64,000 nt of DNA from Verrucomicrobiaceae bacterium (GTDB lineage: Bacteria > Verrucomicrobiota > Verrucomicrobiia > Verrucomicrobiales > Verrucomicrobiaceae): contig JAIXVB010000279.1 of the NCBI GenBank assembly GCA_027483245.1, positions 9,847-73,846 of the forward strand. The letters are read 5' to 3'. Below, piece by piece: positions 6,072 to 38,584 of the stretch (within the stretch, counting starts at the first letter, position 1; the number at the start of each line of letters is the position of its first letter). The position numbers and the translations under genes were made by a program. The notes under the pieces are model-generated. The model was given only the letters and a program-made list of their open reading frames with translations. It ran no database searches and was not told the DNA's origin.

Positions 6072-6084
6072 TTGTAACCAGATA

Positions 6085-7269: not shown

Positions 7270-7272
7270 TTT

Positions 7273-11777: not shown

Positions 11778-11820
11778 ATACCCAAGCATAGTTTGCGTCA
11801 CGCCAAGCACGAAAAGGAAT

Positions 11821-14800: not shown

Positions 14801-14931
14801 GGAAGGTGATATCCGGGGAAAGATCGGAACGGAGGCTCGATGGACACCGGTTCCGGGCACACATGTCCGCCGCGTCCGGGAAGCTCGAAGCGATAGAATT
14901 GCCCGGTAAGCTCCTGTTCCAGGGTGGTCAT
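11821..14931 (-). CDS. VirD4/TraD-like coupling ATPase with Pro-rich linker and C-terminal PD-(D/E)XK-like domain
   Basis: RHTHVIGASGTGKST (Walker A), LYIDEFQNF (Walker B), RKYRMGMTLAQQ; tail HTEIQREL..GF..IEK..TDLLLEKDGISLAVEV. Confidence 0.8.
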   Translation of the reverse strand: MTTLEQELTGQFYRFELPGRGGHVCPEPVSIEPPFRSFPGYHLPQPKVKDDGRRHTFFSGFMERLGRAISDSEEPADPEVDEAPQFFPWERQAIVEFQISLPRERKGLAAHMEQFLSSIYLCGEPVSFEILGMGGEALLQIAASIDDAPLVERQLTLLFPGMVVTATDDALTDAWQQRGSSFAICECGLEREFMLPLRLPRSDPYFPLLSVLASLDESELGILQVIFEPVRHAWGGEALQAVSDGEGGPFFVNRPELLAGAKAKFSRPLHATVVRFASSADDSERAWKILAEMLSGFVADTGNTGNRLIPLSNDSYEGKDHERDLILRQSRRTGMLLNRDEMSWLVRFPEDPLTAALLRSDSGMTRAAPESARQPSSLQLGRNEHGGLSNHVFLSDENRFRHTHVIGASGTGKSTLLFNLIRQDIEAGAGVGVLDPHGDLIEKILGVIPDHRINDVILLDPSDEEYVIGFNILSAHSDLEKTLLASDLVSIFARLSTSWGDQMNSVFQNAILAFLESSTGGTLADLRRFLLDKDFRSDFLKTVEDPEAVFYWEKAFPQLGGNKSIGPILTRLESFLSPKSIRHMVSEKSNNLDFAEIMNGGKILLACLPQGRMGRENSYLLGSLLVAKFQQAAMSRQSLAEKDRKPFWLYIDEFQNFATPSMAELLSGVRKYRMGMTLAQQSMAQLRQHPELASSVLTNTCTRIVFRPGDEDAQSLVAGFANFDSKALMSLSVGEAICRIGRSDADFNLSVSASAPDDEGHLEERRLAMIESSRRQYGRPKAEISAERVEAAAAVEKSRPPVTSRPSPLVASESPPQGPPPSSVEKSREPQSVFAEMPPESQEVPTKREKASVPRNLGIGGELHTEIQRELKLTAESLGFRATIEKQLPGTLESTDLLLEKDGISLAVEVTVTNTLGYELKNIGKCLRAGVSMVAVVGSDAAKLKKLEATAMHTYAVQSAKLLGFFIPEVFVARLQEFILVPQLPVESIKPSEKSAMHKGWKIKTTVVSISAEDMKEREAEAARILAGAVRKPKRG

Positions 14932-14934
14932 GGC

Positions 14935-15639
14935 TCATCGTTCCAATCGGCGGAGTAGGGAAGCCAGCGCCGGATGGGCCTCCGGCCACGCTTCCTTGAA
15001 CTCTACCTGCTTGATGCCGCCCGCCGCCATCATCTCCTCGACGGCGCGCTTCACAAGGGCTTCCGTCTGATCCAGGAACATGACACGTGTGTCATAGCGG
15101 TAGTAGGTTTCCTTCCGGACCAGTTCATAGAGCGTGCCGAAAATCGGGATGCGAAGAAAGAACGCGTCCAGGTCATGGAGGCCCAGCGTCAGCGCATTCC
15201 TCATCAACATGAACCCACCGATCAGGCTGAAAAGGATGATAGCGCTACCCGCGATGACGCCGAAGAGCTGGACGTAGCCGAAAACGACGGCTGCGATGGC
15301 GGCAAGAATGACCAGCAATTCCCAAACCATGAGAGAGACGGGGATCTGAGCCTGCCTAGCTGAGAAGAACCAAGCCTCGCCAAAGGCAGCGGAGCAAACA
15401 TCGAAGACCAGCCTTTCGCGGCGGATGCGGAGATACTGGCGGCGAGGCGAGAGCGTCCCGCCTTCGCTGAATTCCTCGCGCGTGACCTCGATGCCAGGAA
15501 ACTGCCTTTCCTGAAGCCAGTCTTCGATCCGGCTGTAGAACTCGTCCGTGCTGAACGAGCCGCGCTCGATGGGGGTGTACCAGTATTTGATCACCTCCGG
15601 CCTTTTGCGCCTCCAGATGCCGAATGTCGGTAGGTCCAT
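14935..15639 (-). CDS. Hypothetical membrane protein
   Basis: 234-aa ORF with two central hydrophobic helices; 3 nt upstream of the ATPase start. Confidence 0.7.
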   Translation of the reverse strand: MDLPTFGIWRRKRPEVIKYWYTPIERGSFSTDEFYSRIEDWLQERQFPGIEVTREEFSEGGTLSPRRQYLRIRRERLVFDVCSAAFGEAWFFSARQAQIPVSLMVWELLVILAAIAAVVFGYVQLFGVIAGSAIILFSLIGGFMLMRNALTLGLHDLDAFFLRIPIFGTLYELVRKETYYRYDTRVMFLDQTEALVKRAVEEMMAAGGIKQVEFKEAWPEAHPALASLLRRLER

Positions 15640-15648
15640 AGGATCAGT

Positions 15649-15915
15649 TCATGAGGGTTTGGATGCGTCGCGGATGACCTTCCAGAGTTCGATACCCAGC
15701 CCGTCTGCCATCCTGATAAGAGTCACCAGCGTCGGACCTCGCATCCCACGTTCTACGTAGCTGACCATTTGCTGTGACAATCCGACAGAGTCGGCTAAGT
15801 CGGTCATCGTCATGCCTTGGCGCAGGCGCTCTTCCTTCAGCAGGCGAGCCACCTCGGAGCATATTGCAGTTTCATTGCGGTCCGACGGCACTCTTATTGA
15901 ATAGCGGATTCGCAC
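15649..15915 (-). CDS. XRE-family HTH transcriptional regulator
   Basis: RLLKEERLRQGMTMTDLADSVGLSQQMVSYVERGMRGPTLVTLIRMADGLG. Confidence 0.88.
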   Translation of the reverse strand: MRIRYSIRVPSDRNETAICSEVARLLKEERLRQGMTMTDLADSVGLSQQMVSYVERGMRGPTLVTLIRMADGLGIELWKVIRDASKPS

Positions 15916-15948
15916 TTGACGAAAACCTAACTATAGTGAGATTGGAAC

Positions 15949-16194
15949 ATGGAATTCCTTCGTCGCCTCGGTCCTGATCCGCACGAAAACGGGAAACAAA
16001 CTCCCGCGCTGGATGGTTGCCCTGATCTGTGGGAGATGGCCGACGGCGACATCGCTGTCATCGGCATCGACATCACAGACGAATTCCGCGGACACCTTCC
16101 TGCCACGGCTGGCTGTGGCCCAGATGAGCGCATCGTGAGGCTACCTCGTGATATCGTGCTGGCTGCAAAGAAGGACATCATCTCGCTAAGCTAG
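15949..16194 (+). CDS. Small hypothetical protein
   Basis: 81 aa, GCPDLWEMADGDIAVIG...CGPDERIVRLP; divergent from the XRE gene. Confidence 0.65.
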   Translation: MEFLRRLGPDPHENGKQTPALDGCPDLWEMADGDIAVIGIDITDEFRGHLPATAGCGPDERIVRLPRDIVLAAKKDIISLS

Positions 16195-16275
16195 GCGCTC
16201 GCAGGTTGACGTTTTAGTCTTTGAATTGCAGTCACATGGGATCTCTTCTGTTGTAGCCGGAATAGATGCGTATTG

Positions 16276-16310
16276 AAAAAACCCCGACCAGACTGAGCTG
16301 ATCGGGGCTG
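16276..16310 (-). terminator. Intrinsic terminator after radC
   Basis: Minus strand CCCCGATCAG-CTCAGT-CTGGTCGGGG followed by T6, 14 nt after the stop at 16325. Confidence 0.7.
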
Positions 16311-16324
16311 TTTGATGCGGGAGT

Positions 16325-17245
16325 TCAGACGATACCGCTCTCCTTGAAGGAGAAGTAGCGCTGATGACCCACGATGATGTGGTCGCACAGGTCGATGCGG
16401 AGAAGTTCTCCTGCTTCGCGAACACGTCGGGTGAGGGACGCATCAGCGGTGCTGGGAGAAGAATCTCCGCTCGGGTGGTTGTGCATGAGAACGATGGCAT
16501 GGGCTGCCGCCATGATGGCGATGCGGAAGACTTCGCGGGGATGCGCCATAGCCTCGTTGAGCGAACCGACGGACACCAAGTAATGCCCTCTGATCCGCAG
16601 CCGGGTCGTGAGCACAAGAACCGCGACGCATTCCACGTCCGCATTGTAGTGCGGGGCAGTGGCGATGTGCCGGTTCCAGTATTCCACGGCCTTTGCCGGA
16701 CGATCCATCAGCATCAGGGATTCCGGGGAGGGGCACTCCCGCAGGCTGATGACCTTCCATTCCTGGGGCTCGGACTTTAGTCGTTGCCGCAAAGGCCGAT
16801 TGGACGGATTTGACATGAACAATTCCAATTGTTCCATTTTACCTTCCTCTGCCGTCCGCCTGCTACTGTAGGCTGCTTCAGGGGTGAAACTCTCGCGTTC
16901 GAAGCTGGACGGCTCCATGCATTGAAGCGAATCGCGAGAGGTTGGCCTTTTGGCCGGTTCGGGCTCTTCGGGCAAGAGCACCGTGGTTTCCGAACGATCT
17001 GCCTCCGTAACGATCAGGAATCTCCTGCCAGACTTGGTAATGTAGGAGGAAGAAATCCGGGAGCCGTTATCAAGGGCGCGGTCGTTCGCCTTGCGTTGCT
17101 TCTTTCGAAGATCGCCCCAGTCGCCTTTTACATGACGCGCGAGGCCTGCGGCGATTTCGAACTTGGTGAGGGCCACGAGGGCGCTCGCCGTGGCGGCGAT
17201 CCTTCCGAGGGGGAAGACCGCCACCGGAGGGTGCAGCGGATACAC
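16325..17245 (-). CDS. radC: RadC/JAB-domain protein (JAB part 16325-16837), in frame with an upstream copy of a small plasmid-type domain
   Basis: GSLNEAMAHPREVF, LMHNHPSGDSSPSTAD, LCDHIIVG. ATG 16837 has a GAGGAAGG RBS-like site; the frame stays open up to GTG 17245 (RHVKGDWGDL...TTVLLPEE). Confidence 0.82.
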   Translation of the reverse strand: MYPLHPPVAVFPLGRIAATASALVALTKFEIAAGLARHVKGDWGDLRKKQRKANDRALDNGSRISSSYITKSGRRFLIVTEADRSETTVLLPEEPEPAKRPTSRDSLQCMEPSSFERESFTPEAAYSSRRTAEEGKMEQLELFMSNPSNRPLRQRLKSEPQEWKVISLRECPSPESLMLMDRPAKAVEYWNRHIATAPHYNADVECVAVLVLTTRLRIRGHYLVSVGSLNEAMAHPREVFRIAIMAAAHAIVLMHNHPSGDSSPSTADASLTRRVREAGELLRIDLCDHIIVGHQRYFSFKESGIV

Positions 17246-17267
17246 TTCGTTTCGAACGGGTAGCTGA

Positions 17268-17546
17268 TCAGTATTCAGAAGGGAGAAGCACCGTTGAGAC
17301 GGAGCGGTCCCACTCGGTGATGATCCAGAAGCGCGTGCCCCCTTCTCCGGTGTAAGCGGAAAGAAGGCGGGAGCCGTTTTGCAACGCCTCCTCGTTGGCT
17401 TCGAGATCCTCCTTCGGAAGCTCGCCCCAATCACCACCGAGATGGCGAAGTAGCGCAGCCTGGATGTCTAACGAGGTCAGGACCTCCATAGCGCCGGGCG
17501 TTGCGCAAAGCTGGCCCAGCTGGAAACGAGGAAATGATTCTGTCAT
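17268..17546 (-). CDS. Small plasmid/ICE-associated conserved protein
   Basis: FQLGQLCATPGA...RHLGGDWGEL...GSRLLSAY...FWIITEWDRSVSTVLLPSEY, a motif pattern typical of this plasmid-borne family. Confidence 0.75.
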   Translation of the reverse strand: MTESFPRFQLGQLCATPGAMEVLTSLDIQAALLRHLGGDWGELPKEDLEANEEALQNGSRLLSAYTGEGGTRFWIITEWDRSVSTVLLPSEY

Positions 17547-17872
17547 AGGCCGTGATCGCTGAAGGTTGCCGCGATGGCATCCACATCGTCTCCGAGAAGC
17601 TCCTCTATGCCGCTTTTGGCCGACACGAGGTCGGGCCGAGGAACGGCATCCTTGGGACAGCCGGGACGGCGGATGACATGCATCAAGGTTATGCCAAATT
17701 CATAGCCGGTGGCTTTGAGCATGGCCCAGTAGGGACCGGCGAGACGCTCCCCGACAGGGAGCCTCCGCCAGGCAATCGCCTCGGTGTACGAAGCGACCGT
17801 TTCATAGATGGAGTCGTGGAAGAGATGATCCGTGTCCCACGGCTCCCGGCAGGTGGAGCAGAGAACGTCCAT
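17543..17872 (-). CDS. Hypothetical protein with N-terminal CxxC
   Basis: MDVLCSTCREPWD; overlaps the next gene by 4 nt (ATGA). Confidence 0.65.
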   Translation of the reverse strand: MDVLCSTCREPWDTDHLFHDSIYETVASYTEAIAWRRLPVGERLAGPYWAMLKATGYEFGITLMHVIRRPGCPKDAVPRPDLVSAKSGIEELLGDDVDAIAATFSDHGL

Positions 17873-17884
17873 GGGAAGAAGCTG

Positions 17885-18928
17885 TCAGAATGGTTTGAGG
17901 AGGGCTTCTACCTGGGTGCGTTCCAGCAGCTCCGGCTGCGGATGGTATCCGCCGATGTCGATGATGCGGACGATGGAGGAACGGCACAGGCGCGATGCTG
18001 CCTCCGAAGCCCCTCTGCGCCCCGCCTCATCCGCATCGAAAAGCAGATGAACAGGCCGTCCGGCTCCGGCTGCTTCGCGGATCAGAAGTTCTTGCCGCGA
18101 AGACAAGGAAGAGCCGAGAATGGCGACGGTTGCCGGGAACCCGAGCTGGACGAGATGAAGGCAGTCGAAGACGCCCTCGACGACAAGCAGGGGAGCGGAT
18201 GCATCCGCATTGACCGCACGGTCGATGTTGAAGACTTCGAGGCTTTTTCGGAATCCCTTGGGCAGTTTGTATTTGCCCTGGCCCGAAGGCGGCTCGCCAG
18301 GCCAACGACCGATGTAGCCTGTGACGGCTCCAGCGCGGTTGCGGATGGGGATAGCGACATGTCCGCGAAGGCAGCCGCGGGCGCAATATCCGATGCCATA
18401 GCTCGCGATGGTGGCCTCGGTGAGGCCTCGCTCGTTAAGATAAGGGTGATCGGGCTTGAGTGCCTTCAGAGCGAATGAAAGAGGCGGGTTTTCGCCCTCC
18501 TCATCTGGGTCATCGGCGACTGTCGGCGGCGGTTGAAGTGGCTGAGAAGACGGGCGGGGGGAAGCATCCGTCGTCTGCCTGAGTGCTGTTCCAACAGGAC
18601 GATTCGTGACCTTGTCAGGCATGAACCACTCCTGGAGAAGCAGCGCAGCGTCCCGGAAAGAGATGCCTTCCCGGAGCGAAACGAAGTCGATGACGTTGCC
18701 GCCTCGACCACAGGTGCCGAAGCAGTTGAAGCAATTGCGGGACACAGACACACGAAACTGAGTTGGATTGGTGCCCTTGTGCAGGGGACAAGGGCCCGAA
18801 AGACGATCTGCTGCGCGCTTGAGAGAGCCCAGCAGATCGTAGCGTTCGAGAACCTGGAGGATGCCAACCCGCGATTTCACCTCCTTGAAATCGACGAAGG
18901 CGCTATGGGGAGCGGTGGAAGTGCTCAT
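17885..18928 (-). CDS. DnaG-like primase (CHC2 zinc finger plus Toprim)
   Basis: GPCPLH...FNCFGTC (zinc finger), VVEGVFD and LFDADEAG (Toprim); start placed at ATG 18928. Confidence 0.85.
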   Translation of the reverse strand: MSTSTAPHSAFVDFKEVKSRVGILQVLERYDLLGSLKRAADRLSGPCPLHKGTNPTQFRVSVSRNCFNCFGTCGRGGNVIDFVSLREGISFRDAALLLQEWFMPDKVTNRPVGTALRQTTDASPRPSSQPLQPPPTVADDPDEEGENPPLSFALKALKPDHPYLNERGLTEATIASYGIGYCARGCLRGHVAIPIRNRAGAVTGYIGRWPGEPPSGQGKYKLPKGFRKSLEVFNIDRAVNADASAPLLVVEGVFDCLHLVQLGFPATVAILGSSLSSRQELLIREAAGAGRPVHLLFDADEAGRRGASEAASRLCRSSIVRIIDIGGYHPQPELLERTQVEALLKPF

Positions 18929-19050
18929 GATAAAGAACTGGGTTTGATGGAATGGCTTGGGGTTGAAGACAAAAAAGCCACTCAGCAAAGGCTGGTGTGG
19001 CTTCCTTGAGGCCAATTGTATCACGACCTTTCCGACGATGACCGGACCCC

Positions 19051-28902: not shown

Positions 28903-29373
28903 ATATATGATGAAAGTCCGTAGGAATTCAAATCAATCATTCACCTCTCATGCAACACAGTGACAAAATTCAAGAAAGGAAAACCTGAGTCAATATACTC
29001 AAGTTTCTACGCTCGTTTATCATATGCTTTCAGTGGCCGCAGCGGGCGGTCTCGATGAGAATAGGGCGAAGCAAATCTATGGCGAGATCCTTGATTCCTA
29101 CTCCACATCAATGGGACGTCGGATTATTTTGGCTACTCCGCGACGATATTTTTAAGTGCTAGTCGCTACAGATGGGCAGATAGAGACAAGGGGAAATCCG
29201 CCTGAATTTTTGAACTAAACCCTAATTGGACCAAGCAAAGGTAACTAAATACTTCCTCAACAACTAGCAAGGGAGGCGATGATTCCGCTTTCAGTGCACG
29301 ATCAAAGTTGAATCGGCGTGGCCTTCCTCAGATCCATCTAACATGCCCCTTTTCGATACCACCAAAGTCCCCT

Positions 29374-29382
29374 TGTGGATAA
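29374..29382 (-). promoter_or_regulatory. DnaA box
   Basis: Perfect TTATCCACA on the minus strand, directly after the Replic_Relax stop. Confidence 0.4.
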
Positions 29383-29383
29383 C

Positions 29384-30319
29384 TCAAACGTTGTAGGCCG
29401 GAAGAATCCAGACCTTCTTTCCTGAGCACGTTTCCCAGCACTGTCGGAATGCATCGTCCTGGACCAGAAGTTCCGATGCGACGGCGAACAGGAACATTTT
29501 TGACTCGCCGTTCTTGAAGGTTGATGCTGTTGCCTGTTGAAGAGAAAAGAGCCGCCTCCTGGATTCGGCCACCACCAGCACACGAAAGGCGGGAATCTGA
29601 AACCTGCTCCACAGGACCCCTTGTCGGCGTGTTTCCTTGTATGAAAGGATTTTGCGATGGAATGAGGATTGGGATATCCCCTTACGAATAACAGGCATGG
29701 TGCCCCGATCCACCTCCATGATGTAATATTGCGGTTCACTATCAGGAGACTGAAGAGAAAAGGCCCCGTCAGGAATCTGCCAAGCTTTCAGAATTTCGTG
29801 CCCTGGTTTCAGAGTAACGGACCATTTCAAGCGCACAGACCGTCGATCTGGTGCAGACTGCCCAAACGGCCATTCCTGGGGCCAACGAATGGTCAATGCC
29901 CTTGCAGTCGCTGCAGCTTCCATTGCAACCAGAACGTCGGTAACCCGCAAGGAATGGGAGAGTGACAAGGCTACAGTGGTCCCTTTCTGGTTCGGCAAGG
30001 ACTGGACTTGATAAGACGCATGCTCGCTCAGCGCCTTCAATCCTCGTTTGGTCAGGCAATAAACGATCATCTGCCCGATGTTGTCTCGGATATACATCTG
30101 CTGGACTGGCCGATCCAGAAAGCCAGCATGGAACAATCTTCCAAGTCGGCGGACCAAATGCTGACGGCTTCCAGGAAGGAGCTTTAGCAGGTGATGAGAC
30201 TGAAGAAACCGAAGGCGACCGACGGCTGAGAGGATGCCGAGATCTCGATCTGTGAGAATGAGACGGCCGCTATCAGTGACGCGTTTGAATCGTGGCTTCC
30301 TTGGCCGCGATTGATGCAT
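29384..30319 (-). CDS. Replication-relaxation (Replic_Relax) family protein
   Basis: LTDRDLGIL..RFL...YCLTKRG...HSLRVTDV...PDGAF...MEVDRGTM. Confidence 0.82.
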   Translation of the reverse strand: MHQSRPRKPRFKRVTDSGRLILTDRDLGILSAVGRLRFLQSHHLLKLLPGSRQHLVRRLGRLFHAGFLDRPVQQMYIRDNIGQMIVYCLTKRGLKALSEHASYQVQSLPNQKGTTVALSLSHSLRVTDVLVAMEAAATARALTIRWPQEWPFGQSAPDRRSVRLKWSVTLKPGHEILKAWQIPDGAFSLQSPDSEPQYYIMEVDRGTMPVIRKGISQSSFHRKILSYKETRRQGVLWSRFQIPAFRVLVVAESRRRLFSLQQATASTFKNGESKMFLFAVASELLVQDDAFRQCWETCSGKKVWILPAYNV

Positions 30320-30359
30320 TCATCCATTTTAACACAAATTCAGTTTCAGCGTTGCTCAG

Positions 30360-31634
30360 TTATTTTTGACCTGACCAGCGTCTCAGTTTCCTCTCCACTT
30401 GCAGACGGGGACTGCAGAACCGCTGTCGGCTTCGAGTCATGCTCGAACCGCGGTGTCCTTTAGCGACCAATATTAGCGGAACCACGGAGACGCGAATCGG
30501 CTGCATTGTTCCCTCAGCAGGGCGCACAAGCACCGTGAAAGTCGGCAGCTCGGCAAACAGACCGGGAGCCATCGAGTGGCCATAATTTGCAGCCATCACC
30601 TCCGCGTCCTCACCTGATACCCGGAATGTAAAAATGCTGCCCGCATTACCCAACACCGCCTCCCGCATTAGAGGTGATAACTGACCAAGAAACTGATGGG
30701 CCATGAGGAGCTGAATACCGAATTTTCGCGACTCCGAAAGCACCGTCGCCATGGCGTCAGACAGGAAGCCATGGGCTTCATCCAGGATGAGTGTGAATGG
30801 TTTCCGTTCAGAAATGGGCATTGAACCGCGCTCCATCGCCACGGCTGCAATGGAGGCAGTGAGAAGCGCCCCAAGAAGCCGCGCTGCATCTTCACCCAGT
30901 TTACCTTTGTCGAGATTGACCACCAGGATCTTACCTTCATCCAGAACCGCCCGCAGGTTCACCTTCATCTTCACCTGGCCCAGCGAATGCCGCACGGGTG
31001 GAAAGGCCGCGAGCTGGCCGAGCTTGTTCAAGACAGGAGCAATGGCTTCCGTCCGAAACCGTTTGTCCCAGGCCTCATATTCGCGCTCCCAGAATGCACG
31101 TATGAATGGATCGCGACATTGGCGGACAGCCCAGGCGCGATAAACATCGTCGGTCAGGAGCCTTGGGAGGGCGATGAGGCTCGTGTTCTGGCAGTCAATG
31201 AGCACCCGCAGCGAATGATACAAAACATGCTCAAGCCTTGGCCCCCAGCTTTGGGACCACAGGTGCCTGAACGCTGACACCAGAGCCGAAGCCAGACGCG
31301 GTCTCGCCTCCAATGGCACTGAATCTGAAACAAAATTCAGGGAGGGGGCATACTCCTCATCCCCGAAGTTGAGGTAAATCACGTCGTCAAGCCGGGACCT
31401 GGGAACCGCATCCAGCGTCCAGGTCGCAAGATCGCCGTGCGGATCAAAAACGCCCACCCCTTGACCGGCCTGGATCAGCCCGTCAATGAGAAGCTGAAGC
31501 AGCGTGGACTTACCGGTACCGCTCTTGCCCAGGACATAGGCGTGACGCGACAGCTCCGCCAGAGGCAGAAAATAGGGAACTTTGAAACCGCCATAGGTAT
31601 GGCGGTGGCCGAGGAAAATGGAATCATCATTCAT
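30360..31634 (-). CDS. Second VirD4/TraD-like coupling ATPase
   Basis: RHAYVLGKSGTGKST, LILDEAHGF, SESRKFGIQLLMAHQ; start placed at ATG 31634. Confidence 0.82.
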   Translation of the reverse strand: MNDDSIFLGHRHTYGGFKVPYFLPLAELSRHAYVLGKSGTGKSTLLQLLIDGLIQAGQGVGVFDPHGDLATWTLDAVPRSRLDDVIYLNFGDEEYAPSLNFVSDSVPLEARPRLASALVSAFRHLWSQSWGPRLEHVLYHSLRVLIDCQNTSLIALPRLLTDDVYRAWAVRQCRDPFIRAFWEREYEAWDKRFRTEAIAPVLNKLGQLAAFPPVRHSLGQVKMKVNLRAVLDEGKILVVNLDKGKLGEDAARLLGALLTASIAAVAMERGSMPISERKPFTLILDEAHGFLSDAMATVLSESRKFGIQLLMAHQFLGQLSPLMREAVLGNAGSIFTFRVSGEDAEVMAANYGHSMAPGLFAELPTFTVLVRPAEGTMQPIRVSVVPLILVAKGHRGSSMTRSRQRFCSPRLQVERKLRRWSGQK

Positions 31635-31790
31635 ATCGGAGGCGGCCGCCCTCGCCCGAAGCTCATCCGTCCCATCGTGAAGATTGGAAGAGCCAGAAGG
31701 CCAGCATGCTTTTTGTTGAAGAGCCGGTTGGGAGAGAGGCTGTCGCCGATACCGAAGCCGGAGCTTCGGAGCAAAGGACAAGCCCCCCTT

Positions 31791-31799
31791 ATTATACCA
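31791..31799 (-). promoter_or_regulatory. Extended -10 promoter for the ATPase-relaxase operon
   Basis: Minus strand TGGTATAAT matches TGnTATAAT; hairpin CCGAAGC-CGGA-GCTTCGG (31752-31769) lies just downstream. Confidence 0.5.
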
Positions 31800-31844
31800 G
31801 TTTTAGAAACCGTCGTTGACCCCGTACACCAGTTACCACGTCGT

Positions 31845-31868
31845 CACCCGTTCATCCGTTCACCCGTT
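31845..31868. repeat. Three tandem 8-bp iteron-like repeats
   Basis: CACCCGTT CATCCGTT CACCCGTT. Confidence 0.65.
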
Positions 31869-31892
31869 AAAAAACCCGTGGATCATGCAGCC

Positions 31893-32478
31893 GCCTTGGG
31901 CGGGTTGAATCCGTCAAGGCAGGGGCCGGGCTTAACCCCGGCTGCTGCCACACCCCGTCAGGGAAAAACGTTGGGGCAGAGGTGGGCCGCAGGCACAGGC
32001 TTGAGCGGAGGCCTGGCGCAGCGGCCGTATTCAAGCCTGTGGCTGTGGAGGGTGGGGGAGCGGAAACCTTCGTTAAACCCGTCGTCTCGCCAAGCGAGAA
32101 TCCTTCGTTGAACTCGTTCCCCACGTGTCGTGCCCGCCTCGCGGGCCGACTTCCACAGAAGGGCGATGTCCTTGACGCGATAGCGCTCCGGACTCGCCTG
32201 ATAACCTTGGGCTTCTGTGGAAGTCGGGCCGTGAGGCCGACACGTGGGAAGTCGTTTCGCCCTTTGTTATCAAAGGGAAACCGCCATGGGCGGTGTCGTT
32301 GCCCCGACATACCGGGTATGTCGTCCCGATTGTCGGGGCAGCCGTTCTCCGCCATCCACAGCCAGCCTGTTGACAGCAGGCGGGCAAGTACGGTGTACTG
32401 CGAATGTCCGATAGGACGGGCACCTTGACAAATCGCTGCAAAAGATGCGAAAACATAGGGATCAGGTATCCCTGATCC
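31893..32478. other. Hairpin-dense non-coding region (origin or large structured RNA candidate)
   Basis: At least nine stems, e.g. ACAGGCTTGA/TCAAGCCTGT, arms 32117-32161/32212-32250, TGCCCCGACA/TGTCGGGGCA, GGATCAGG-TATC-CCTGATCC. Confidence 0.6.
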
Positions 32479-32541
32479 AGACCTCGGGGAAGACGGCCAA
32501 CCGCTTCCTTCTGGGCCTTTTATTGGTCTAACAAGACATCA

Positions 32542-33474
32542 ATGTACATCACTTACGCCCGACGGGCCGGAGATTTCAAACCCGCCGTCGTCACCCCGGT
32601 TGTCTCGGACAACCGGATGCTTATCAACGAATACCTGGCCTGGAAAGCCACTCATACCCGTTCAGCAGGCGAAAAATACGCCCTCTGGGTAACCCGCTTC
32701 CAGGAATTCACAAACAAAGCGCCCGAGGATTTGGTCATTGGCGATTGGACCGCCTTTGCTTCCAGCCTGAATGGGCGCTTTGCTCCGAAGTCCGTGGAAT
32801 TTGCGTTGAGCATCATCCACAACTACCTCCGCTACTGGCATGAGCAGGGCAGGCTTCGGCTGCCATTGTACCTCGCCCGTATCCCGACAGCCAGGGCTCA
32901 CTCGCATGAAGCCATCAGCGAGGAAGAATACCGACGGCTGCTAGACGTGCTGAAGGCTGAGGAACACCTGCGCGACCTCGCAATCGTCAGACTGCTCCAC
33001 GACACCGGCATGCGGGTGGGGGAACTGGAATCCCTGGAAATCGAGCAGATCGAGGAAGACAGCTCGGCGGTCATTGACACGGAAAAGACTGTCCGCCGTC
33101 GCCGGGTCTTCTGGAACCAGGACACCGATGAAGTTCTTCAGCGCTACCTGGTGAACCGGATCAATGATGGACCCGAAAGTGACTGGCTCTTCGCGGGACG
33201 CACTCCCGGCAAAGACCATCTCAACCGGCGAACCATCGAACGGATGATCAGGGACACGTGCGAAAGAGCCGGAATCACACGGAGGCTGACGCCGCACTCC
33301 TTCCGGCACGCCTTCATCCACCGCATGGCCGCACTGGGAACGCCGGATGCGATCATCGCCCAGCTGGTAGGGCACAGCACCCCGAATACGATTTCGCACT
33401 ACACGAAGCTGTCCAGGCCTGAAGCCGAGCGATTTGCCAGGCTCCAGTTCAGCCATCTGGCGCTGGCAGCCTAA
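32542..33474 (+). CDS. Tyrosine recombinase/integrase (XerC/D-like)
   Basis: LRDLAIVRLLHDTGMRVGEL, TPHSFRHAF, LVGHS..TISHYT: complete R-H-R-H-Y set. Confidence 0.93.
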   Translation: MYITYARRAGDFKPAVVTPVVSDNRMLINEYLAWKATHTRSAGEKYALWVTRFQEFTNKAPEDLVIGDWTAFASSLNGRFAPKSVEFALSIIHNYLRYWHEQGRLRLPLYLARIPTARAHSHEAISEEEYRRLLDVLKAEEHLRDLAIVRLLHDTGMRVGELESLEIEQIEEDSSAVIDTEKTVRRRRVFWNQDTDEVLQRYLVNRINDGPESDWLFAGRTPGKDHLNRRTIERMIRDTCERAGITRRLTPHSFRHAFIHRMAALGTPDAIIAQLVGHSTPNTISHYTKLSRPEAERFARLQFSHLALAA

Positions 33475-33495
33475 AGCCGGTGGTCGCGGCTCCAG

Positions 33496-33504
33496 TTATC
33501 CACA
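33496..33504 (+). promoter_or_regulatory. DnaA box
   Basis: Perfect TTATCCACA shortly after the integrase stop. Confidence 0.4.
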
Positions 33505-33515
33505 GTCTCACCCTC

Positions 33516-33545
33516 TGTACAAGAGGCAGGGCATCCAGCTATAAT
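33516..33545 (+). promoter_or_regulatory. Putative sigma70 promoter for rep-ardC
   Basis: TGTACA-18 nt-TATAAT. Confidence 0.45.
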
Positions 33546-33573
33546 TCCAGACAGTTTCTTTTCCCTTCCGCAT

Positions 33574-33727
33574 TGGTCGCGACCACCCCTCAAACCGAGG
33601 GGACAAAGCCTACGGCATTGATGTCGCACAATGAGACTTTCCGCTCGTCAAGATTGACGGAACGAAAAGGCAGTGATCGGAAAGAAACGGCTCCGGTGCA
33701 GCTCGAACGAAAGTTCAGGCAAACCGG
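33574..33727 (+). ncRNA. Candidate structured leader or small RNA
   Basis: Stems CCCCT/AGGGG, CATTG/CAATG, CGTCA-AGAT-TGACG, and CCGGT/ACCGG enclosing GAAC-GAAA-GTTC (GNRA loop); 12-bp palindrome TGGTCGCGACCA. Confidence 0.35.
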
Positions 33728-34049
33728 TTCACGGTCGAATTACTCATTCTACTAACTTACCCGCCCCATGCGACAGCAGGAGCTCGAATACATTCCGGTC
33801 GGCCAGGACAGGCCACAACATTTCCCAACAATACGTGGCTTCCTTTTGAAATGGTTGTGTGCCTGGCTTGGCGATCCGTGCATGAAATGTTCCTGCGATA
33901 AAACGTCGCGGGGTGGGGAGGTAGCGGAACACATCATCGAATTTTAGCAGTCCCAGGCCTGAGAGCACCGCTGCATTTTGCTGGCCGGAAAGGCACGCCA
34001 TCCGGCTGGGTGCAGAAGCTCTCATGCATGGCACTGGGAATGAACCATC

Positions 34050-34565
34050 ATGGCCAAACAACGGATCGTAAACACACGCTTCTGGGACGATTCCTACATT
34101 GCCCTGCTGAGTCCGCATGAAAAACTGCTGTTCCTCTACCTTCTCACCTCGCCTTTGACGACAATTGCGGGAGTCTATGAACTGCCCATAAAGCGGGCGG
34201 TGTTCGACACTGGACTTACCCTTGAAGAGATTACGCAAGGCTTCGCCAAACTGGAGCAGGACGGCAAGATCCTGCGGCAGGACGACTGGGTGGCCATCGT
34301 CAACTTCGTCCGGCATCAGACCCTCAACCCCAAGGTCCGGACGGGCATCGTCCTGGAGATGACCCGCTCGCCAAGGGAACTGGTCAAACGCCTGCCCGAG
34401 AGTGTCCAGGCAGTCCTCATGCAGTCCGATAGGCTATCGCATTCTAATTCCAATCCTAATTTGAATTCAAATTCCAAAGGGGAGCGGCCGGAGTCCCCTG
34501 CCCCGGCCTTCCCGACGGACATCCGCAGCGAGATTCATGAGATTCTGGGGAGGAGGCGGCTTTGA
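34050..34565 (+). CDS. Phage-type replication initiator / replisome-organiser-like protein
   Basis: RIVNTRFWDD...KLLFLYLLTSP...GVYELPIKRAVFDTGL; SNSNPNLNSNS linker. Confidence 0.62.
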   Translation: MAKQRIVNTRFWDDSYIALLSPHEKLLFLYLLTSPLTTIAGVYELPIKRAVFDTGLTLEEITQGFAKLEQDGKILRQDDWVAIVNFVRHQTLNPKVRTGIVLEMTRSPRELVKRLPESVQAVLMQSDRLSHSNSNPNLNSNSKGERPESPAPAFPTDIRSEIHEILGRRRL

Positions 34566-34646
34566 CCGCCCCTCCCGGTGAAGGTCGGCCTGAAGTCCGG
34601 TTCACGGTGAAGTGGACTTCAACTGACCCTCACAAGCATCCATGCA

Positions 34647-35543
34647 ATGAAAACAGCAAAATCAAAAGCCGAATCAGGCGAAATCCAAAGACCGGACACC
34701 TACCAAGCGGTGACCGACACCATTCTGAAGAAACTCGAAGAAGGCGTCGTCCCGTGGCGCTGCCCCTGGGACAAGAAAGTCGGCAGGCCGCGCAACTTCG
34801 CCAGCCAGCGCGACTACCAGGGAATCAACGTCATGCTGCTCGGAGTGAAGCGATTTGCATCGCCTTACTGGCTGACCATGCGCCAGGCCAACGACCTTGG
34901 AGGCCAGGTGCGGAAAGGCGAGCACGGCACGCTCATCGTCAAATACGGACGCCATGAGCGGCGAACCAAAGGCAAGGAGGAGGAAACCAAAGCGGTGTAT
35001 TATCTCCGGGGCTACACAGTCTTCAACGCCCTTCAGATCGAAGGTGTGGAGTTTCCGGGAGCTGAAGAGCAGCAACCGGCGGCGAACGAACTGCGGATTG
35101 AATCCGCCGAACGGATCATTGCCCAGATGCCAAACAAGCCGACCCTCAAGGAAGGCAAGACCGTCAGGGCCTGCTATCGCGTCAGCACCGACACGATTGA
35201 AATGCCCGCGCGCTCCCGCTTCGAGAGCCCGGAGAGTTACCACCTCGTCCTCTTCCATGAGATCATCCACGCCACCGGCCATGAAAGCCGGCTGAACCGG
35301 AAGAGTCTCATGGGAGCGACGGGTGCCGTGATGACCGAATATTCCAAAGAGGAGCTTGTGGCCGAAATGGGCTCGGCGTTCCTCGGCATGGAGGCAGGCA
35401 TCGTTCAGGATGAGCATGAGCAATCCGCCGCTTATATCCAATGCTGGCTGGACACACTCCGCGAGCCGAACCGCAAACGCTGGATCGTGGAAGCGGCAAG
35501 CCTCGCGGCAAAAGCCGCCAATCATGTGCTGGCCATTGAATAG
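34647..35543 (+). CDS. ardC: ArdC family ssDNA-binding antirestriction protein
   Basis: EEGVVPWRCPW, YQGINVMLL, YWLTMRQA..LGGQVRKGEHG, FHEIIHATGH (HExxH), EELVAEMGS. Confidence 0.92.
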   Translation: MKTAKSKAESGEIQRPDTYQAVTDTILKKLEEGVVPWRCPWDKKVGRPRNFASQRDYQGINVMLLGVKRFASPYWLTMRQANDLGGQVRKGEHGTLIVKYGRHERRTKGKEEETKAVYYLRGYTVFNALQIEGVEFPGAEEQQPAANELRIESAERIIAQMPNKPTLKEGKTVRACYRVSTDTIEMPARSRFESPESYHLVLFHEIIHATGHESRLNRKSLMGATGAVMTEYSKEELVAEMGSAFLGMEAGIVQDEHEQSAAYIQCWLDTLREPNRKRWIVEAASLAAKAANHVLAIE

Positions 35544-36590: not shown

Positions 36591-36620
36591 TTGACAGCAA
36601 GGGCTCGGAGGAAGTACACT
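36591..36620 (+). promoter_or_regulatory. Sigma70 promoter of sRNA copy A
   Basis: TTGACA-18 nt-TACACT, 6 nt before the repeat start. Confidence 0.7.
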
Positions 36621-36626
36621 GATACT

Positions 36627-36699
36627 GAAATCGCCGCCGCCCCGACACTGCCTCCGTATGGAGGTCTTTCCGAAAGGATAGGGGCGGTGGTTTTTATTT
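36627..36699 (+). ncRNA. 73-nt structured sRNA candidate, copy A
   Basis: 68/73 identical to 38932-39004; closing stem CCGCCGCCCC/GGGGCGGTGG, inner hairpins CCTCC-GTAT-GGAGG and CTTT-CCG-AAAG, ends TTTTTATTT. Confidence 0.72.
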
Positions 36700-36907: not shown

Positions 36908-38584
36908 TCATCCAAGGTGCGTTGAAAGCCGCAAAGCAAGGGCCACGAGCGTGCGCACCGGGTTGGCCGCCGAGCTGAGCGGCATCACGGACATGTCGCA
37001 GGCAAAGAGCCTCTGCGTGCCGACAACCCGTAGGTCTTCATCGACCACCGAGTCCGGCGCAAACGGTGCGTCCAGGCGGGGACGGTAGGGCATGCGCAGG
37101 CTTCCGACTGAGTGATGAACCGTGCCCCACCCGAAGCCTTTGCCTTCCTGTCCGAACCAGACGTTGGAAGCCGGACGGGCGGGCTGACCGTGGACCTCGA
37201 ACTGGGAAAAGATCTGGTGCGTCACATGGTTCAGGACGGCCCAGACATCATCCTTGTTCTTCTGCCAGCCAGCCAGGGCGCTGAACCGGGACTGGGCCAG
37301 ATAGTCAGCCCAGCTCTGGTTCCGGAAGACGATTTCCGGTACATACCCGTACGGCGGCGCCGGTTTGACTTCGTTGTTCTCATCCAGGCAGTTCCCGAAG
37401 CTGAACTTGATGTCAATTCTGGCGGTCCCGGCGGGCGGAGGCTGCGCGGTGCCATCGGCGTCGTTCTCACGCAGATGCCAGTATTCATGATTCAAGTTCA
37501 TTTCAACATTGAAGGGGTAGCGGATCTGGTTGTTCCCGTCACGCAGCCCGCGCGAGTAGAAGATGATCTTGGCATGGTCGGCAGGCCCCAGGGCGACATT
37601 GCCGATCCGGGTCACGAACGTCGTGATCTCATTGGATGTCGGATGGTCGGTGAGGCCGCGTCCCACGAGGCTCTTCACCCCCTCCGGGAGCGAAGGATAG
37701 AGGCTGGAGCGGCGAAGCAGCTTCGGGCTCTCGATCGAACCTCCGGCAAGCACGACCTTGTCCGCATGGAACGTCCGTGACTGGCCGCTCCGGGTGTTGC
37801 GCACAACGAGACCGACACGGCTGCCATGATCCTGCACGTCCTCGACGAAATGATTCAGCAGCAGATGCAGGCCCGGGCCGTCGCCGTGTCGCGAGCCCGG
37901 TGTCAGCCCCACCTGATTGACGAGCAACTCGGCGGTGTTGAACACGCCTGTCGGTTCGGTAAAGTACTTGTCCTTGGGCGTGCCATCATCTTCAAGATAA
38001 GGCTGGTGCAGGGCTCGGGGTGTTTCCTGGATGGAGAAGTCGGCTGCCAGCGGTGATTCCCGCAATCGGCTGACAACCGCCTGGGCCGCCGCTCCCAGCG
38101 ACAGGGATTCATTCATCGTGTCTCCCGCCCGGTTCAACAGCCCGCCCGACAACTCCTGCCGGACCTGCGGAGGAAAATACTCCAGCTCCCATCCCTGCAA
38201 TGCGGGAATAAGCCCTGACCAGAAGACCGACCGACCGCCGAAATTGAGCTGAGGCTTCTCGCCGATGTAATTCTGGCTGCCGCTGTCTCCAGCCTGCCAG
38301 AAGGTGTCGCAGCCGAAGTGCTTGGCGAGACTGCTGTTGGGGAACCTGCAGATGTTGTAGACGTGGGTGGGGTAGAGGAACGAACCGGCTTCGATAACGA
38401 GAATTCGCTTCTGCGAGCCCAGCCGGTCGGCGAGATCGTCGGCGAGCACGCCTCCGCCGATACCAGACCCGACGACGATGATGTCAAAATCATCACGCCC
38501 ACCCATGTATTGAAGGAAAAGGCGCTCCCTGGCAGCCGTCTCTTCGGAAACGAAGTTGGCGTAAGTGTTAGAACTGAAGCTCAT
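36908..38584 (-). CDS. GMC family flavin oxidoreductase (pyranose-oxidase-like)
   Basis: IIVVGSGIGGG..ILVIEAG, VVLAGGSIESPKLL, HHSVGSLRM, DMSVMP..AANP; start placed at ATG 38584. Confidence 0.87.
   Translation of the reverse strand: MSFSSNTYANFVSEETAARERLFLQYMGGRDDFDIIVVGSGIGGGVLADDLADRLGSQKRILVIEAGSFLYPTHVYNICRFPNSSLAKHFGCDTFWQAGDSGSQNYIGEKPQLNFGGRSVFWSGLIPALQGWELEYFPPQVRQELSGGLLNRAGDTMNESLSLGAAAQAVVSRLRESPLAADFSIQETPRALHQPYLEDDGTPKDKYFTEPTGVFNTAELLVNQVGLTPGSRHGDGPGLHLLLNHFVEDVQDHGSRVGLVVRNTRSGQSRTFHADKVVLAGGSIESPKLLRRSSLYPSLPEGVKSLVGRGLTDHPTSNEITTFVTRIGNVALGPADHAKIIFYSRGLRDGNNQIRYPFNVEMNLNHEYWHLRENDADGTAQPPPAGTARIDIKFSFGNCLDENNEVKPAPPYGYVPEIVFRNQSWADYLAQSRFSALAGWQKNKDDVWAVLNHVTHQIFSQFEVHGQPARPASNVWFGQEGKGFGWGTVHHSVGSLRMPYRPRLDAPFAPDSVVDEDLRVVGTQRLFACDMSVMPLSSAANPVRTLVALALRLSTHLG

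What the first reader, a model, noticed from the sequence alone, without database searches (positions are those of the whole stretch)
31752..32478. About 700 nt of dense secondary structure and iterons between the relaxase operon and the integrase
Seen: three 8-bp repeats, then at least nine stems including a roughly 130-nt imperfect hairpin (32117-32250), a 60-nt stem (31987-32048) and two mutually exclusive folds (TGCCCCGACA/TGTCGGGGCA versus CGACATACC/GGTATGTCG). No credible protein. Inference: a combined transfer or single-strand origin for the Replic_Relax protein, or a large ncRNA or switch linked to the tyrosine recombinase.
Basis: partly seen in the sequence, partly recalled or inferred. 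Interest (0 to 1): 0.7.

Follow-up and report, generated by a model that had tools for sequence, protein, structure and literature searches.

The report
Conserved hairpin block beside integrase gene
A roughly 430-base non-coding block of conserved hairpins lies between the DNA-transfer genes and the integrase gene of a mobile element found in Verrucomicrobiota. It is most likely the site where one DNA strand is cut and handled for cell-to-cell transfer, but a new structured RNA cannot be ruled out.

Summary
Window 31752-32478 folds far better than shuffled sequence (z -10.6 as RNA, -12.8 as DNA) and encodes no conserved protein.

The same block sits directly upstream of a Xer-like integrase in all 13 non-redundant loci recovered. 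These include a metagenome contig and contigs found through 11 integrase homologues, with integrases 56-72% identical. In the core (32075-32345), 95.5% of alignment cells pair, against 32-47% in slid controls. Twenty-eight pairs carry compensatory double changes.

The + strand is the folding strand. G-U/T wobbles outnumber A-C 43 to 7, and the + strand is more stable in 13 of 13 loci.

The block lies between a conserved leftward promoter for the ATPase/Replic_Relax (MOB_C) operon and conserved TTGACA boxes ahead of the integrase-ArdC genes. It matches no Rfam family.

The anatomy is a 129-nt imperfect hairpin with a highly conserved 3' arm and tail, plus strand-biased GTCG-type short repeats. 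This parallels the MOB_C origin of transfer of pAM373: a 142-bp inverted repeat next to a direct-repeat array.

Best reading (about 0.45): an origin of transfer, perhaps also a single-strand origin, whose + strand is the transferred strand. Main rival (about 0.25): a new + sense structured RNA.

The parts
29384..30319 (-). Replic_Relax (MOB_C-class) putative relaxase gene
   Evidence: Pfam PF13814, E 3.4e-14. PF13814 is the MOB_C class (PMC5357655). Homologues in L007, L021 and L022 are 44-54% identical.
30360..31634 (-). HerA/TrwB/TraD-like P-loop ATPase gene (coupling-protein-like), most likely starting at the ATG at 31634
   Evidence: Pfam DUF87 and TrwB_AAD_bind. NCBIfam SXT_TraD matches, below cut-off. 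The start and its 5' leader are conserved in 6 loci.
31752..31769 (-). Conserved hairpin in the leader of the ATPase operon (CCGAAGC...GCTTCGG)
   Evidence: Folds. The block is conserved in 6 loci.
31791..31799 (-). Extended -10 box TGGTATAAT of the leftward ATPase/relaxase operon promoter (inferred)
   Evidence: Read from the sequence. ATTATACCAG is conserved in the six aligned loci. The consensus scan missed it because its -35 is weak.
31805..31885 (+). Array of short CCGT/GTCG-type direct repeats, including the 8-bp x3 tandem at 31845-31868; overlaps the -35 region of the leftward promoter
   Evidence: Repeat families D1/D2. Degenerate repeats are also present in relatives. One 8-nt unit is absent in a ~91% identical relative.
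31918..31949 (+). Hairpin H0 (GGCAGGGGCCGGGC-TTAA-CCCCGGCTGCTGCC)
   Evidence: Conserved in 9 aligned loci with compensatory changes and a conserved G-U on the + strand.
31950..32061 (+). G-rich, poorly alignable spacer holding the window-specific 60-nt stem 31987-32048
   Evidence: Stem I2 is not conserved. G is 38-57% against C 18-28% on the + strand in all loci.
32062..32123 (+). Two copies of the GGAAnCCnTCGTTnAA repeat flanking hairpin H2 (32085-32099)
   Evidence: Families D1/D2. H2 pairs covary (helix 2).
32120..32248 (+). Large imperfect hairpin H3, with a conserved 13-nt bulge on the 3' side and a variable apical loop
   Evidence: Helices 3-6: 45 pairs, 22 with double changes, 89-100% of cells paired. 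It is the longest inverted repeat in the 64-kb window.
32246..32258 (+). Conserved tail GGAAGTCGTTTCG, which repeats part of the 3' arm; candidate nick or recognition stretch (inferred)
   Evidence: Near-invariant columns. The 3' arm plus tail is 70-94% identical across loci, the most conserved part. It could alternatively pair with the 5' arm.
32260..32293 (+). Hairpins H4 (32260-32277) and H5 (32281-32293)
   Evidence: H4 is helix 7. The H5 stem is kept while its sequence changes completely between loci (alignment).
32300..32340 (+). H6: palindrome CGACATACC/GGTATGTCG, with an outer alternative CCCCGACA/TGTCGGGG
   Evidence: I10 and I15. The inner stem is kept in 13 of 13 loci with G-C to U-A changes. 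The outer stem is intact in 8 of 13.
32370..32456 (+). Conserved linear motifs ahead of the integrase: TTGACA (32370-75), GTACGGTGTAC (32388-98), TTGACA (32425-30), A/T-rich hexamer (32451-56). Inferred promoter/operator region.
   Evidence: Invariant TTGAC in 13 loci. No consensus structure. The consensus scan does not call a promoter here because the spacing is 20 nt.
32520..32541 (+). Conserved block TTATTGGTCTAACAAGACATCA immediately before the integrase start codon
   Evidence: Alignments.
32542..33474 (+). Xer-like tyrosine recombinase (integrase) gene
   Evidence: Pfam Phage_integrase, E 8.6e-33. Closest solved structures are XerA, XerC-like, IntI4 and XerD. The R-K-HxxR-H-Y residues are invariant in 16 homologues.
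34647..35543 (+). ArdC-type anti-restriction protein gene; syntenic partner downstream of the integrase
   Evidence: Pfam ArdcN and MPTase-PolyVal. Present after the integrase wherever sequence extends.

Best explanation
The block 31800-32345 is the cis-acting DNA-processing region of an integrative transferable element of Verrucomicrobiota. It is an origin of transfer whose hairpins form in the + strand, and it possibly also serves as a single-strand origin.

Proposed mechanism (every step below is inferred; none was tested):
1. Relaxosome proteins bind the strand-biased GTCG/CCGTCGT repeats. Because these overlap the leftward promoter, binding would also auto-regulate the ATPase/relaxase operon.
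2. The relaxase recognises the large hairpin H3 and its invariant 3' arm and tail, and nicks in or just 3' of it. The relaxase is most likely the MOB_C Replic_Relax protein, but the adjacent Xer-like recombinase cannot be excluded.
3. The + strand leaves 5'->3' rightwards, so the integrase and ArdC genes enter the recipient first and the transfer genes last.
4. In the recipient, H0-H6 refold on the single strand. This allows termination and re-joining at H3 and priming of the complementary strand. Relatives carry a DnaG-type primase in the same backbone.

The conserved TTGACA region 32370-32456 is a separate part: the integrase promoter/operator.

What is shown: conservation, base-pair covariation, strand asymmetry, synteny, and the absence of an ORF or an Rfam match.
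For: 1. Structure under selection. In 13 non-redundant loci, 95.5% of cells pair against 32-47% for slid controls. Twenty-eight pairs have double changes, and 0 of 500 shuffles reach the observed values.

2. One strand folds. G-U/T occupies 43 cells in 16 columns, against A-C in 7 cells in 5 columns. The + strand is more stable than the - strand in 13 of 13 loci with RNA parameters and 13 of 13 with DNA parameters.

3. Position. The block lies between a conserved extended -10 box (TGGTATAAT) firing leftward into the ATPase/Replic_Relax operon and invariant TTGACA boxes ahead of the integrase-ArdC genes. This is the classical oriT position between a relaxase operon and a leading region, and it is probably untranscribed. 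No sigma-70-like promoter or + strand terminator was found for the block.

4. Anatomy matches the MOB_C archetype. pAM373 has a 142-bp inverted repeat (14392-14533) next to a 12-bp-period direct-repeat array (14552-14629), between its coupling-protein and replication-relaxation genes. Replic_Relax is the MOB_C class (PMC5357655).

5. Stem sequences are conserved while loops vary. The 3' arm and tail are the most conserved part, 70-94% identical, as expected for a protein-recognised hairpin followed by a nick region.

6. There is one copy per element, always in the same orientation. GTCG occurs 9 times on the + strand against 2.3 expected, the top of 1270 sliding windows.

7. Single-strand origins of about 200 nt with three stem-loops, active in one orientation only, are known in integrative conjugative elements (PMC4595007).
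Against: - Replic_Relax is within 6 kb in only 4 of 13 loci: the window, L007, L021 and L022. L011 and L015 have the ATPase but no recognisable relaxase. L017, L025 and L028 have neither.
- There is no sequence similarity to the pAM373 oriT, and the relaxases are related only at Pfam level.
- In pAM373 the site lies between the coupling-protein and relaxase genes, not upstream of both.
- Six or seven consecutive covarying hairpins and a G-U wobble kept in 11 of 13 loci are more typical of a structured RNA than of described oriTs.
- With the + strand transferred, the integrase and ArdC genes could not be transcribed from the incoming single strand. That differs from the orientation rule reported for leading regions (PMC11541004).
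- The promoter assignments are by eye. The consensus scan found none.
- The more distant relatives L001 and L002 lack the block.
Confidence: 0.45

Rival explanations
1. A new large structured RNA of about 430 nt, transcribed from the + strand. It would be either a stand-alone non-coding RNA or a long leader of the integrase-ArdC operon, acting on integrase expression or on element transfer.
For: Many consecutive hairpins are kept by compensatory change even where the sequence is not conserved, for example H5. G-U wobbles are frequent and one is kept in 11 of 13 loci. The folding strand is the sense strand of the adjacent integrase in 13 of 13 loci. No protein is encoded. Short contigs from RNA-type libraries cover 32121-32417.
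Against: No conserved promoter lies upstream of H0, and no terminator follows H6 on the + strand. Invariant TTGACA boxes and an unstructured 200 nt lie between the block and the start codon, so the block appears to be upstream of the integrase promoter. Loops and junctions are variable while stem sequences are conserved, which is the opposite of most RNAs. No Rfam match at E<=1. The RNA-library contigs are at depth 2, were selected by the query itself, and flanking genes are covered equally in X6, so they are uninformative.
Confidence: 0.25
2. A folded single-stranded substrate for the adjacent Xer-like tyrosine recombinase. This could work either as a hairpin recombination site, like CTX phage attP(+) or integron attC, or as an oriT nicked by a recombinase-type relaxase, as with MpsA, TcpM or MobK.
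For: The block is always directly upstream of the recombinase gene, 13 of 13 loci. The recombinase is a simple Xer/IntI-like enzyme with all catalytic residues. H3 is an imperfect hairpin with a conserved bulge. The H6 half-sites change together (CGACA/TGTCG to CTACA/TGTAG). oriT lies beside the recombinase-like relaxase genes in SGI1 and in pIGRK (PMC6414798, PMC8152469).
Against: The hairpins are intact inside integrated elements, with conserved element sequence on both sides, so no junction falls within them. No second recombinase was found in the genes scanned, so this protein is probably needed as the integrase. A dedicated MOB_C relaxase is present in the backbone.
Confidence: 0.15
3. 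A single-strand promoter or priming signal of the Frpo/ssi kind only. A hairpin in the transferred strand would mimic duplex promoter DNA and drive early transcription in the recipient.
For: The folding is strong and strand-specific. An anti-restriction gene, ArdC, lies 2 kb downstream. Frpo-like elements are common in leading regions (PMC11541004).
Against: The folding strand (+) is the coding strand of the integrase and ArdC, not the template, so it could not drive them. No -35/-10 pair at 16-18 nt spacing is rebuilt in any stem (and reading of H3).
Confidence: 0.08

Closest known systems
oriT (oriT2-type) of the MOB_C plasmids pAD1 and pAM373 of Enterococcus faecalis
   Same: Both have a large inverted repeat (142 bp in pAM373, 129 nt here) beside short direct repeats. 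Both lie next to a Replic_Relax relaxase gene and a coupling-type ATPase gene.
   Different: There is no sequence similarity, and the relaxases are related only at family level. The pAM373 repeat is perfect, while this one is imperfect with a conserved bulge. The pAM373 site lies between the two genes, whereas this one lies upstream of both and beside an integrase. Here there are also four to five further covarying hairpins.
oriT placed between divergent relaxase and leader operons (RP4/R388 type; stated from general knowledge)
   Same: An intergenic block between a relaxase operon and the genes that enter the recipient first. The inverted repeat lies 5' of a conserved single-stranded tail. 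An anti-restriction gene is on the leading side.
   Different: Those relaxases are HUH enzymes with known nick motifs, and no such motif is seen here. This block is two to three times longer.
Single-strand origin sso1 of ICEBs1 and the sso of rolling-circle plasmids (PMC4595007)
   Same: Non-coding, active in one orientation, several stem-loops that form only in single-stranded DNA, and carried by an integrative conjugative element.
   Different: About 200 nt with three stem-loops and recognisable similarity to plasmid sso. No similarity was tested or seen here. The host phylum is different.
Frpo/ssi single-strand promoters of conjugative plasmid leading regions (PMC11541004)
   Same: A hairpin in transferred DNA near anti-defence genes.
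   Different: The folding strand is the wrong one to serve as template for the integrase and ArdC genes, and no promoter hexamers are rebuilt in the stems.
oriT of SGI1 with MpsA, and of pIGRK with MobK (tyrosine-recombinase-like relaxases; PMC6414798, PMC8152469)
   Same: A GC-rich block rich in inverted repeats, beside a tyrosine-recombinase-family gene. pIGRK also needs a G-rich tract.
   Different: Those sites are 125-186 bp. Those proteins are atypical recombinase relatives that act alongside a separate integrase. Here the recombinase is a canonical Xer-like enzyme and a MOB_C relaxase is present.
CTX phage attP(+) forked hairpin and integron attC sites (stated from general knowledge)
   Same: Imperfect hairpins of one strand, recognised by Xer/IntI-type recombinases.
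   Different: No recombination junction lies in the hairpins here. They are internal to integrated elements.

Membership tests
MOB_C-type origin of transfer (pAD1/pAM373) | Large inverted repeat of about 140 bp | tested here: met
   129-nt hairpin at 32120-32248. The pAM373 counterpart at 14392-14533 was checked directly.
MOB_C-type origin of transfer (pAD1/pAM373) | Adjacent series of short direct repeats | tested here: inconclusive
   GTCG/CCGTCGT-type repeats and an 8-bp x3 tandem are present and strand-biased. They are degenerate and lack the regular 12-bp period seen in pAM373.
MOB_C-type origin of transfer (pAD1/pAM373) | Lies beside the Replic_Relax relaxase and coupling ATPase genes | tested here: inconclusive
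   True in the window, L007, L021 and L022. In L011 and L015 the ATPase alone is adjacent. In L006, L009, L010, L017, L025 and L028 other genes are adjacent.
MOB_C-type origin of transfer (pAD1/pAM373) | Sequence similarity to a characterised MOB_C oriT | tested here: not met
   blastn against the pAM373 oriT region gives only chance matches, E >= 0.33.
MOB_C-type origin of transfer (pAD1/pAM373) | Nicked by the cognate relaxase and sufficient in cis for mobilisation | not testable with these tools
   Needs nicking and mating assays.
Single-strand origin (sso) | Strand- and orientation-specific folding into several stem-loops in a non-coding stretch | tested here: met
   The + strand is more stable in 13 of 13 loci, and the wobble asymmetry is 43 to 7.
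Single-strand origin (sso) | Promotes second-strand synthesis; similarity to known sso types | not tested
   No sso library was on hand. The function needs a plasmid ssDNA-accumulation assay.
Frpo/ssi single-strand promoter | The stem rebuilds -35 and -10 hexamers at promoter spacing | tested here: not met
   No promoter-like site on either strand of 31500-32700. The best candidates inside H3 are spaced 13-14 nt apart (read from the sequence).
Frpo/ssi single-strand promoter | The folding strand is the template of the downstream leading genes | tested here: not met
   The folding strand is the + strand, which is the coding strand of the integrase and ArdC genes.
Any Rfam 15 RNA family | Match to a covariance model | tested here: not met
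   No match at E<=1 in 29000-35000. None at gathering score in the window core or in five related loci.
cis-regulatory leader or riboswitch of the integrase mRNA | Conserved structure reaching the ribosome-binding region or forming a terminator before the ORF | tested here: not met
   No consensus structure in 32341-32545. Two conserved TTGACA boxes intervene. No + strand terminator.
Folded single-strand recombination site (attC / CTX attP type) | Imperfect hairpin beside a Xer/IntI-type recombinase gene | tested here: met
Folded single-strand recombination site (attC / CTX attP type) | The hairpin coincides with the recombination junction | tested here: not met
   Conserved element sequence flanks the hairpins on both sides in integrated copies, and there is one copy per locus.

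The most novel reading that the evidence does not exclude
The block is a new class of large (about 430 nt), multi-hairpin, + sense RNA specific to integrative transferable elements of Verrucomicrobiota. It would be made just upstream of the Xer-like integrase gene and would control or take part in integration or transfer. A second reading of equal novelty is that the Xer-like recombinase acts directly on the folded transferred strand, so the element integrates from single-stranded DNA.
Probability: 0.25. Interest if true: 0.7.

Novelty: new variant of a known kind. Interest (0 to 1): 0.5.

Why it matters
Verrucomicrobiota are abundant in soil, water and guts, but their mobile elements and transfer origins are almost unstudied. 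MOB_C relaxases are the least understood relaxase class, with essentially one characterised origin.

This finding gives a well-defined, covariation-supported cis element. It includes a strand assignment, a candidate recognition hairpin and a candidate nick region, all of which can be tested directly. It can also serve as a marker for a whole family of elements: 173 integrase homologues were found at E<=1e-40.

If the block is instead an RNA, it would be a new large structured RNA tied to a recombinase. In either case it shows that single-stranded DNA motifs can produce the covariation signal that is usually read as evidence for RNA.

Tried and rejected
**Rejected explanations**
- Protein coding. 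The ORFs have no Pfam hits, and six-frame comparison shows no conserved frame.
- Known RNA families. No Rfam match in the region or in five related loci.
- tRNA or tmRNA. None in the window.
- Terminal or att repeat. There is one copy per locus, and the - strand hits are only the palindrome matching itself. The direct-repeat search for element ends found only the DUF3800-IX pair.
- Riboswitch or leader. No structure in the last 200 nt.
- Frpo-type promoter. Wrong strand and no promoter hexamers.

**Searches that found nothing or too little**
- Plasmid DNA similarity: none.
- Viral contigs, using a DNA pattern, the integrase and an integrase profile: none.
- Plasmid tblastn with the relaxase: one weak hit.
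- The genome-collection scan gave only distant relatives, L001 and L002. Their gap holds a ParE toxin gene and does not align.

**Transcript evidence that proved uninformative**
- RNA-type public runs gave only depth-2, 151-nt contigs, selected by the query itself.
- In X6 the coverage is as even as in DNA runs.
- The PNAS paper on TraX could not be fetched.

Full report
**Setting**

The finding lies in a 907-nt non-coding gap, 31635-32541. On its left, on the - strand, are a HerA/TrwB/TraD-like ATPase gene (30360-31634) and a Replic_Relax gene (29384-30319). On its right, on the + strand, is a Xer-like tyrosine recombinase gene (32542-33474). This is followed by a conserved 171-aa ORF with no family match and by an ArdC anti-restriction gene at 34647-35543.

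Replic_Relax (PF13814) is the MOB_C relaxase class (PMC5357655), a PD-(D/E)XK-type nuclease family.

Further left the window carries a 1036-aa coupling protein, RadC and a DnaG-type primase. The element is therefore large and looks like an integrative conjugative element. Relatives are labelled Verrucomicrobiia, Verrucomicrobiales and Prosthecobacter.

**Checking the observation**

- the 8-bp x3 tandem at 31845-31868;
- a 129-nt imperfect hairpin at 32120-32248;
- a stem at 31987-32048;
- the overlapping pairings at 32300-32340.

The 727 nt fold at -350 kcal/mol as + strand RNA, against -287 +/- 5.9 for dinucleotide shuffles (z -10.6). The - strand gives z -5.6, and the + strand as DNA gives z -12.8. 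The big hairpin is the longest inverted repeat in the whole 64-kb window.

No protein is encoded. The overlapping ORFs have no Pfam match. Six-frame comparison with five homologous loci gives equal weak scores in all frames, with frame hopping.

**Conservation**

The species-representative genome scan found only distant relatives, L001 and L002, with integrases 40-45% identical. Their ATPase-integrase gap holds a ParE toxin gene and does not align.

A metagenome contig (L004) and the contigs found through eleven integrase homologues all carry the block. Together these give 13 non-redundant loci with integrases 56-72% identical to the window's. In each, the block sits directly upstream of the integrase, once per locus and in the same orientation.

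The conserved core is 32075-32345. Ten loci also keep hairpin H0 at 31918-31949.

Identity to the window:

| Feature | Identity |
|---|---|
| Relaxase (protein) | 44-54% |
| ATPase (protein) | 55-72% |
| ArdC (protein) | 51-74% |
| H3 3' arm plus 13-nt tail (nucleotide) | 70-94% |

The gene to the left of the block varies:
- the ATPase operon in six loci;
- defence-like cargo in L006, L009 and L010;
- an HATPase_c gene in L017, L025 and L028.

In L009 the ATPase promoter block reappears 4.4 kb upstream. The space between that promoter and H0 therefore appears to be a cargo insertion point.

**Structure under selection**

On the 13-sequence core alignment, RNAalifold predicts 62 pairs. Counting them gives:
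- 95.5% of cells paired, against 32-47% when partners are slid by 1-3 columns;
- 28 pairs with changes on both sides, against 8-15 in the slid controls;
- a covariation score of 0.303 against at most 0.078;
- 0 of 500 column shuffles reaching any observed value.

H3 alone has 22 pairs with compensatory change. H5 keeps its stem while its sequence is entirely different between loci.

The 60-nt stem at 31987-32048 is not conserved. That spacer is instead G-rich on the + strand in every locus. The 'mutually exclusive' outer pairing of H6 is intact in 8 of 13 loci, whereas the inner palindrome is universal. The 200 nt before the integrase start codon have no consensus structure.

**Which strand folds**

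G-U/T wobbles occupy 43 cells in 16 columns. A-C pairs, which would be wobbles on the other strand, occupy 7 cells in 5 columns. One G-U is kept in 11 of 13 loci.

The + strand is more stable than the - strand in 13 of 13 loci with RNA parameters and in 13 of 13 with DNA parameters. The functional form is therefore the + strand as a single strand, whether RNA or DNA.

**Linear signals**

To the left of the block, ATTATACCAG is conserved. On the - strand this reads TGGTATAAT, an extended -10 box (31791-31799). It is followed by a conserved leader with a hairpin running into the ATPase gene.

To the right, two TTGACA boxes (32370, 32425) are invariant. GTACGnTGTAC, an A/T-rich hexamer and a 22-nt block before the start codon are also conserved. 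I read these as divergent promoters, which would leave the structured block untranscribed. These promoter assignments are made by eye, and the consensus scan called none.

No conserved + strand promoter precedes H0, and no terminator follows H6.

GTCG-type short repeats (CCGTCGT, AAGTCG, TGTCG) occur 9 times on the + strand in 546 nt, against 2.3 expected. This is the highest count of 1270 sliding windows. One copy overlaps the -35 region of the leftward promoter.

**Comparison with known systems**

*MOB_C origin.* From memory, the MOB_C origin of pAD1 and pAM373 (Francia and Clewell 2002) is a roughly 140-bp inverted repeat next to short direct repeats, with the nick in the repeat. I checked the anatomy directly on pAM373. 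A 142-bp inverted repeat (14392-14533) abuts a 12-bp-period repeat array (14552-14629), between the coupling-protein and replication-relaxation genes. The resemblance in plan is clear, but there is no sequence similarity and the gene order differs.

*Single-strand origins.* Examples of about 200 nt with three stem-loops, active in one orientation, are documented in an integrative conjugative element (PMC4595007).

*Frpo-type promoters* (PMC11541004). These do not fit, because the folding strand is the coding strand of the integrase and ArdC genes and no promoter hexamers are rebuilt in the stems.

*Tyrosine-recombinase-like relaxases.* SGI1 MpsA and pIGRK MobK have their oriT beside their genes. 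This keeps open the possibility that the Xer-like protein is the enzyme acting here. That protein has all catalytic residues and is closest to XerA, XerC/D and IntI.

*Rfam.* No match in the region or in five related loci.

**Transcript evidence**

Five RNA-type public libraries hold 151-nt contigs at depth 2 over 32121-32417, about 98% identical to the window. These runs were selected by the query itself. One of them covers the flanking genes as evenly as DNA runs from the same study do. No run with raw, directional reads was available. This neither supports nor refutes an RNA.

**Verdict**

- **Best explanation (0.45):** an origin of transfer, possibly also a single-strand origin, acting through the + strand. 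H3 and its tail would be the recognition and nick module, and the GTCG repeats would be relaxosome binding sites. The integrase and ArdC genes would then enter the recipient first.
- **Rivals:** a new + sense structured RNA (0.25); a folded substrate of the Xer-like recombinase (0.15); a single-strand promoter (0.08).

It is a new variant of a known kind, of moderate interest. If it proves to be an RNA, or a substrate of the recombinase, it would rank higher.

Noticed in passing
window 36619-36699 and 38924-39004 (+): An 81-nt direct repeat, 90% identical. Both copies match the Rfam DUF3800-IX motif (45.7 bits, and 31.6 bits, which is below the gathering score). Each looks like a GC-rich stem followed by a T-run. 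The two copies bracket the GMC-oxidoreductase-like gene (36908-38953, -), and the second abuts the 3' end of the DUF3800 gene. This looks like a gene inserted between duplicated motif copies.
   Followed up: partly
L009 334-4381; L006 447-5558; L010 1-5268: In relatives, different defence-like cargo sits between the ATPase promoter block and hairpin H0. Examples are PycTM with HTH/M78, HxsD/radical-SAM, and a UvrD-like helicase with a methyltransferase and DUF4365. This suggests a cargo insertion hotspot next to the structured block.
   Followed up: partly
L001 1580-1951 and 3672-3777; L002 5064-5399 and 7191-7315: The more distant relatives (integrase 40-45% identical) carry a ParE toxin gene in the ATPase-integrase gap instead of the hairpin block. 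They have a 105-125-nt inverted repeat, sharing GTTCTGCAC/GTGCAGAAC, downstream of the integrase.
   Followed up: partly
window 929-19024: The left third of the window holds genes for DUF4007, PAPS reductase, a class-V aminotransferase and HATPase_c, which resembles a DNA phosphorothioation-type island. It also holds a 1036-aa type IV coupling protein (11821-14931, -), RadC (16325-17437, -) and a DnaG-type primase (17885-19024, -). Primase and RadC sit next to the relaxase in relatives but are about 10 kb away here, separated by an oligopeptide ABC transporter and an Ig-domain protein.
   Followed up: no
window 31844-31868: One 8-nt unit of the CACCCGTT tandem is missing in a ~91% identical relative seen in runs X6, X9 and X15. 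The copy number of this repeat therefore varies.
   Followed up: no
window 31950-32085 and the matching stretch in nine loci: A G-rich tract on the + strand (G 38-57%, C 18-28%) is kept in composition but not in sequence. A strict G-quadruplex motif occurs only in L004.
   Followed up: partly
window 34050-34565 (+): A 171-aa ORF with no Pfam or NCBIfam match is conserved in position between the integrase and ArdC genes, at 153-206 aa in all relatives. Its function is unknown.
   Followed up: no
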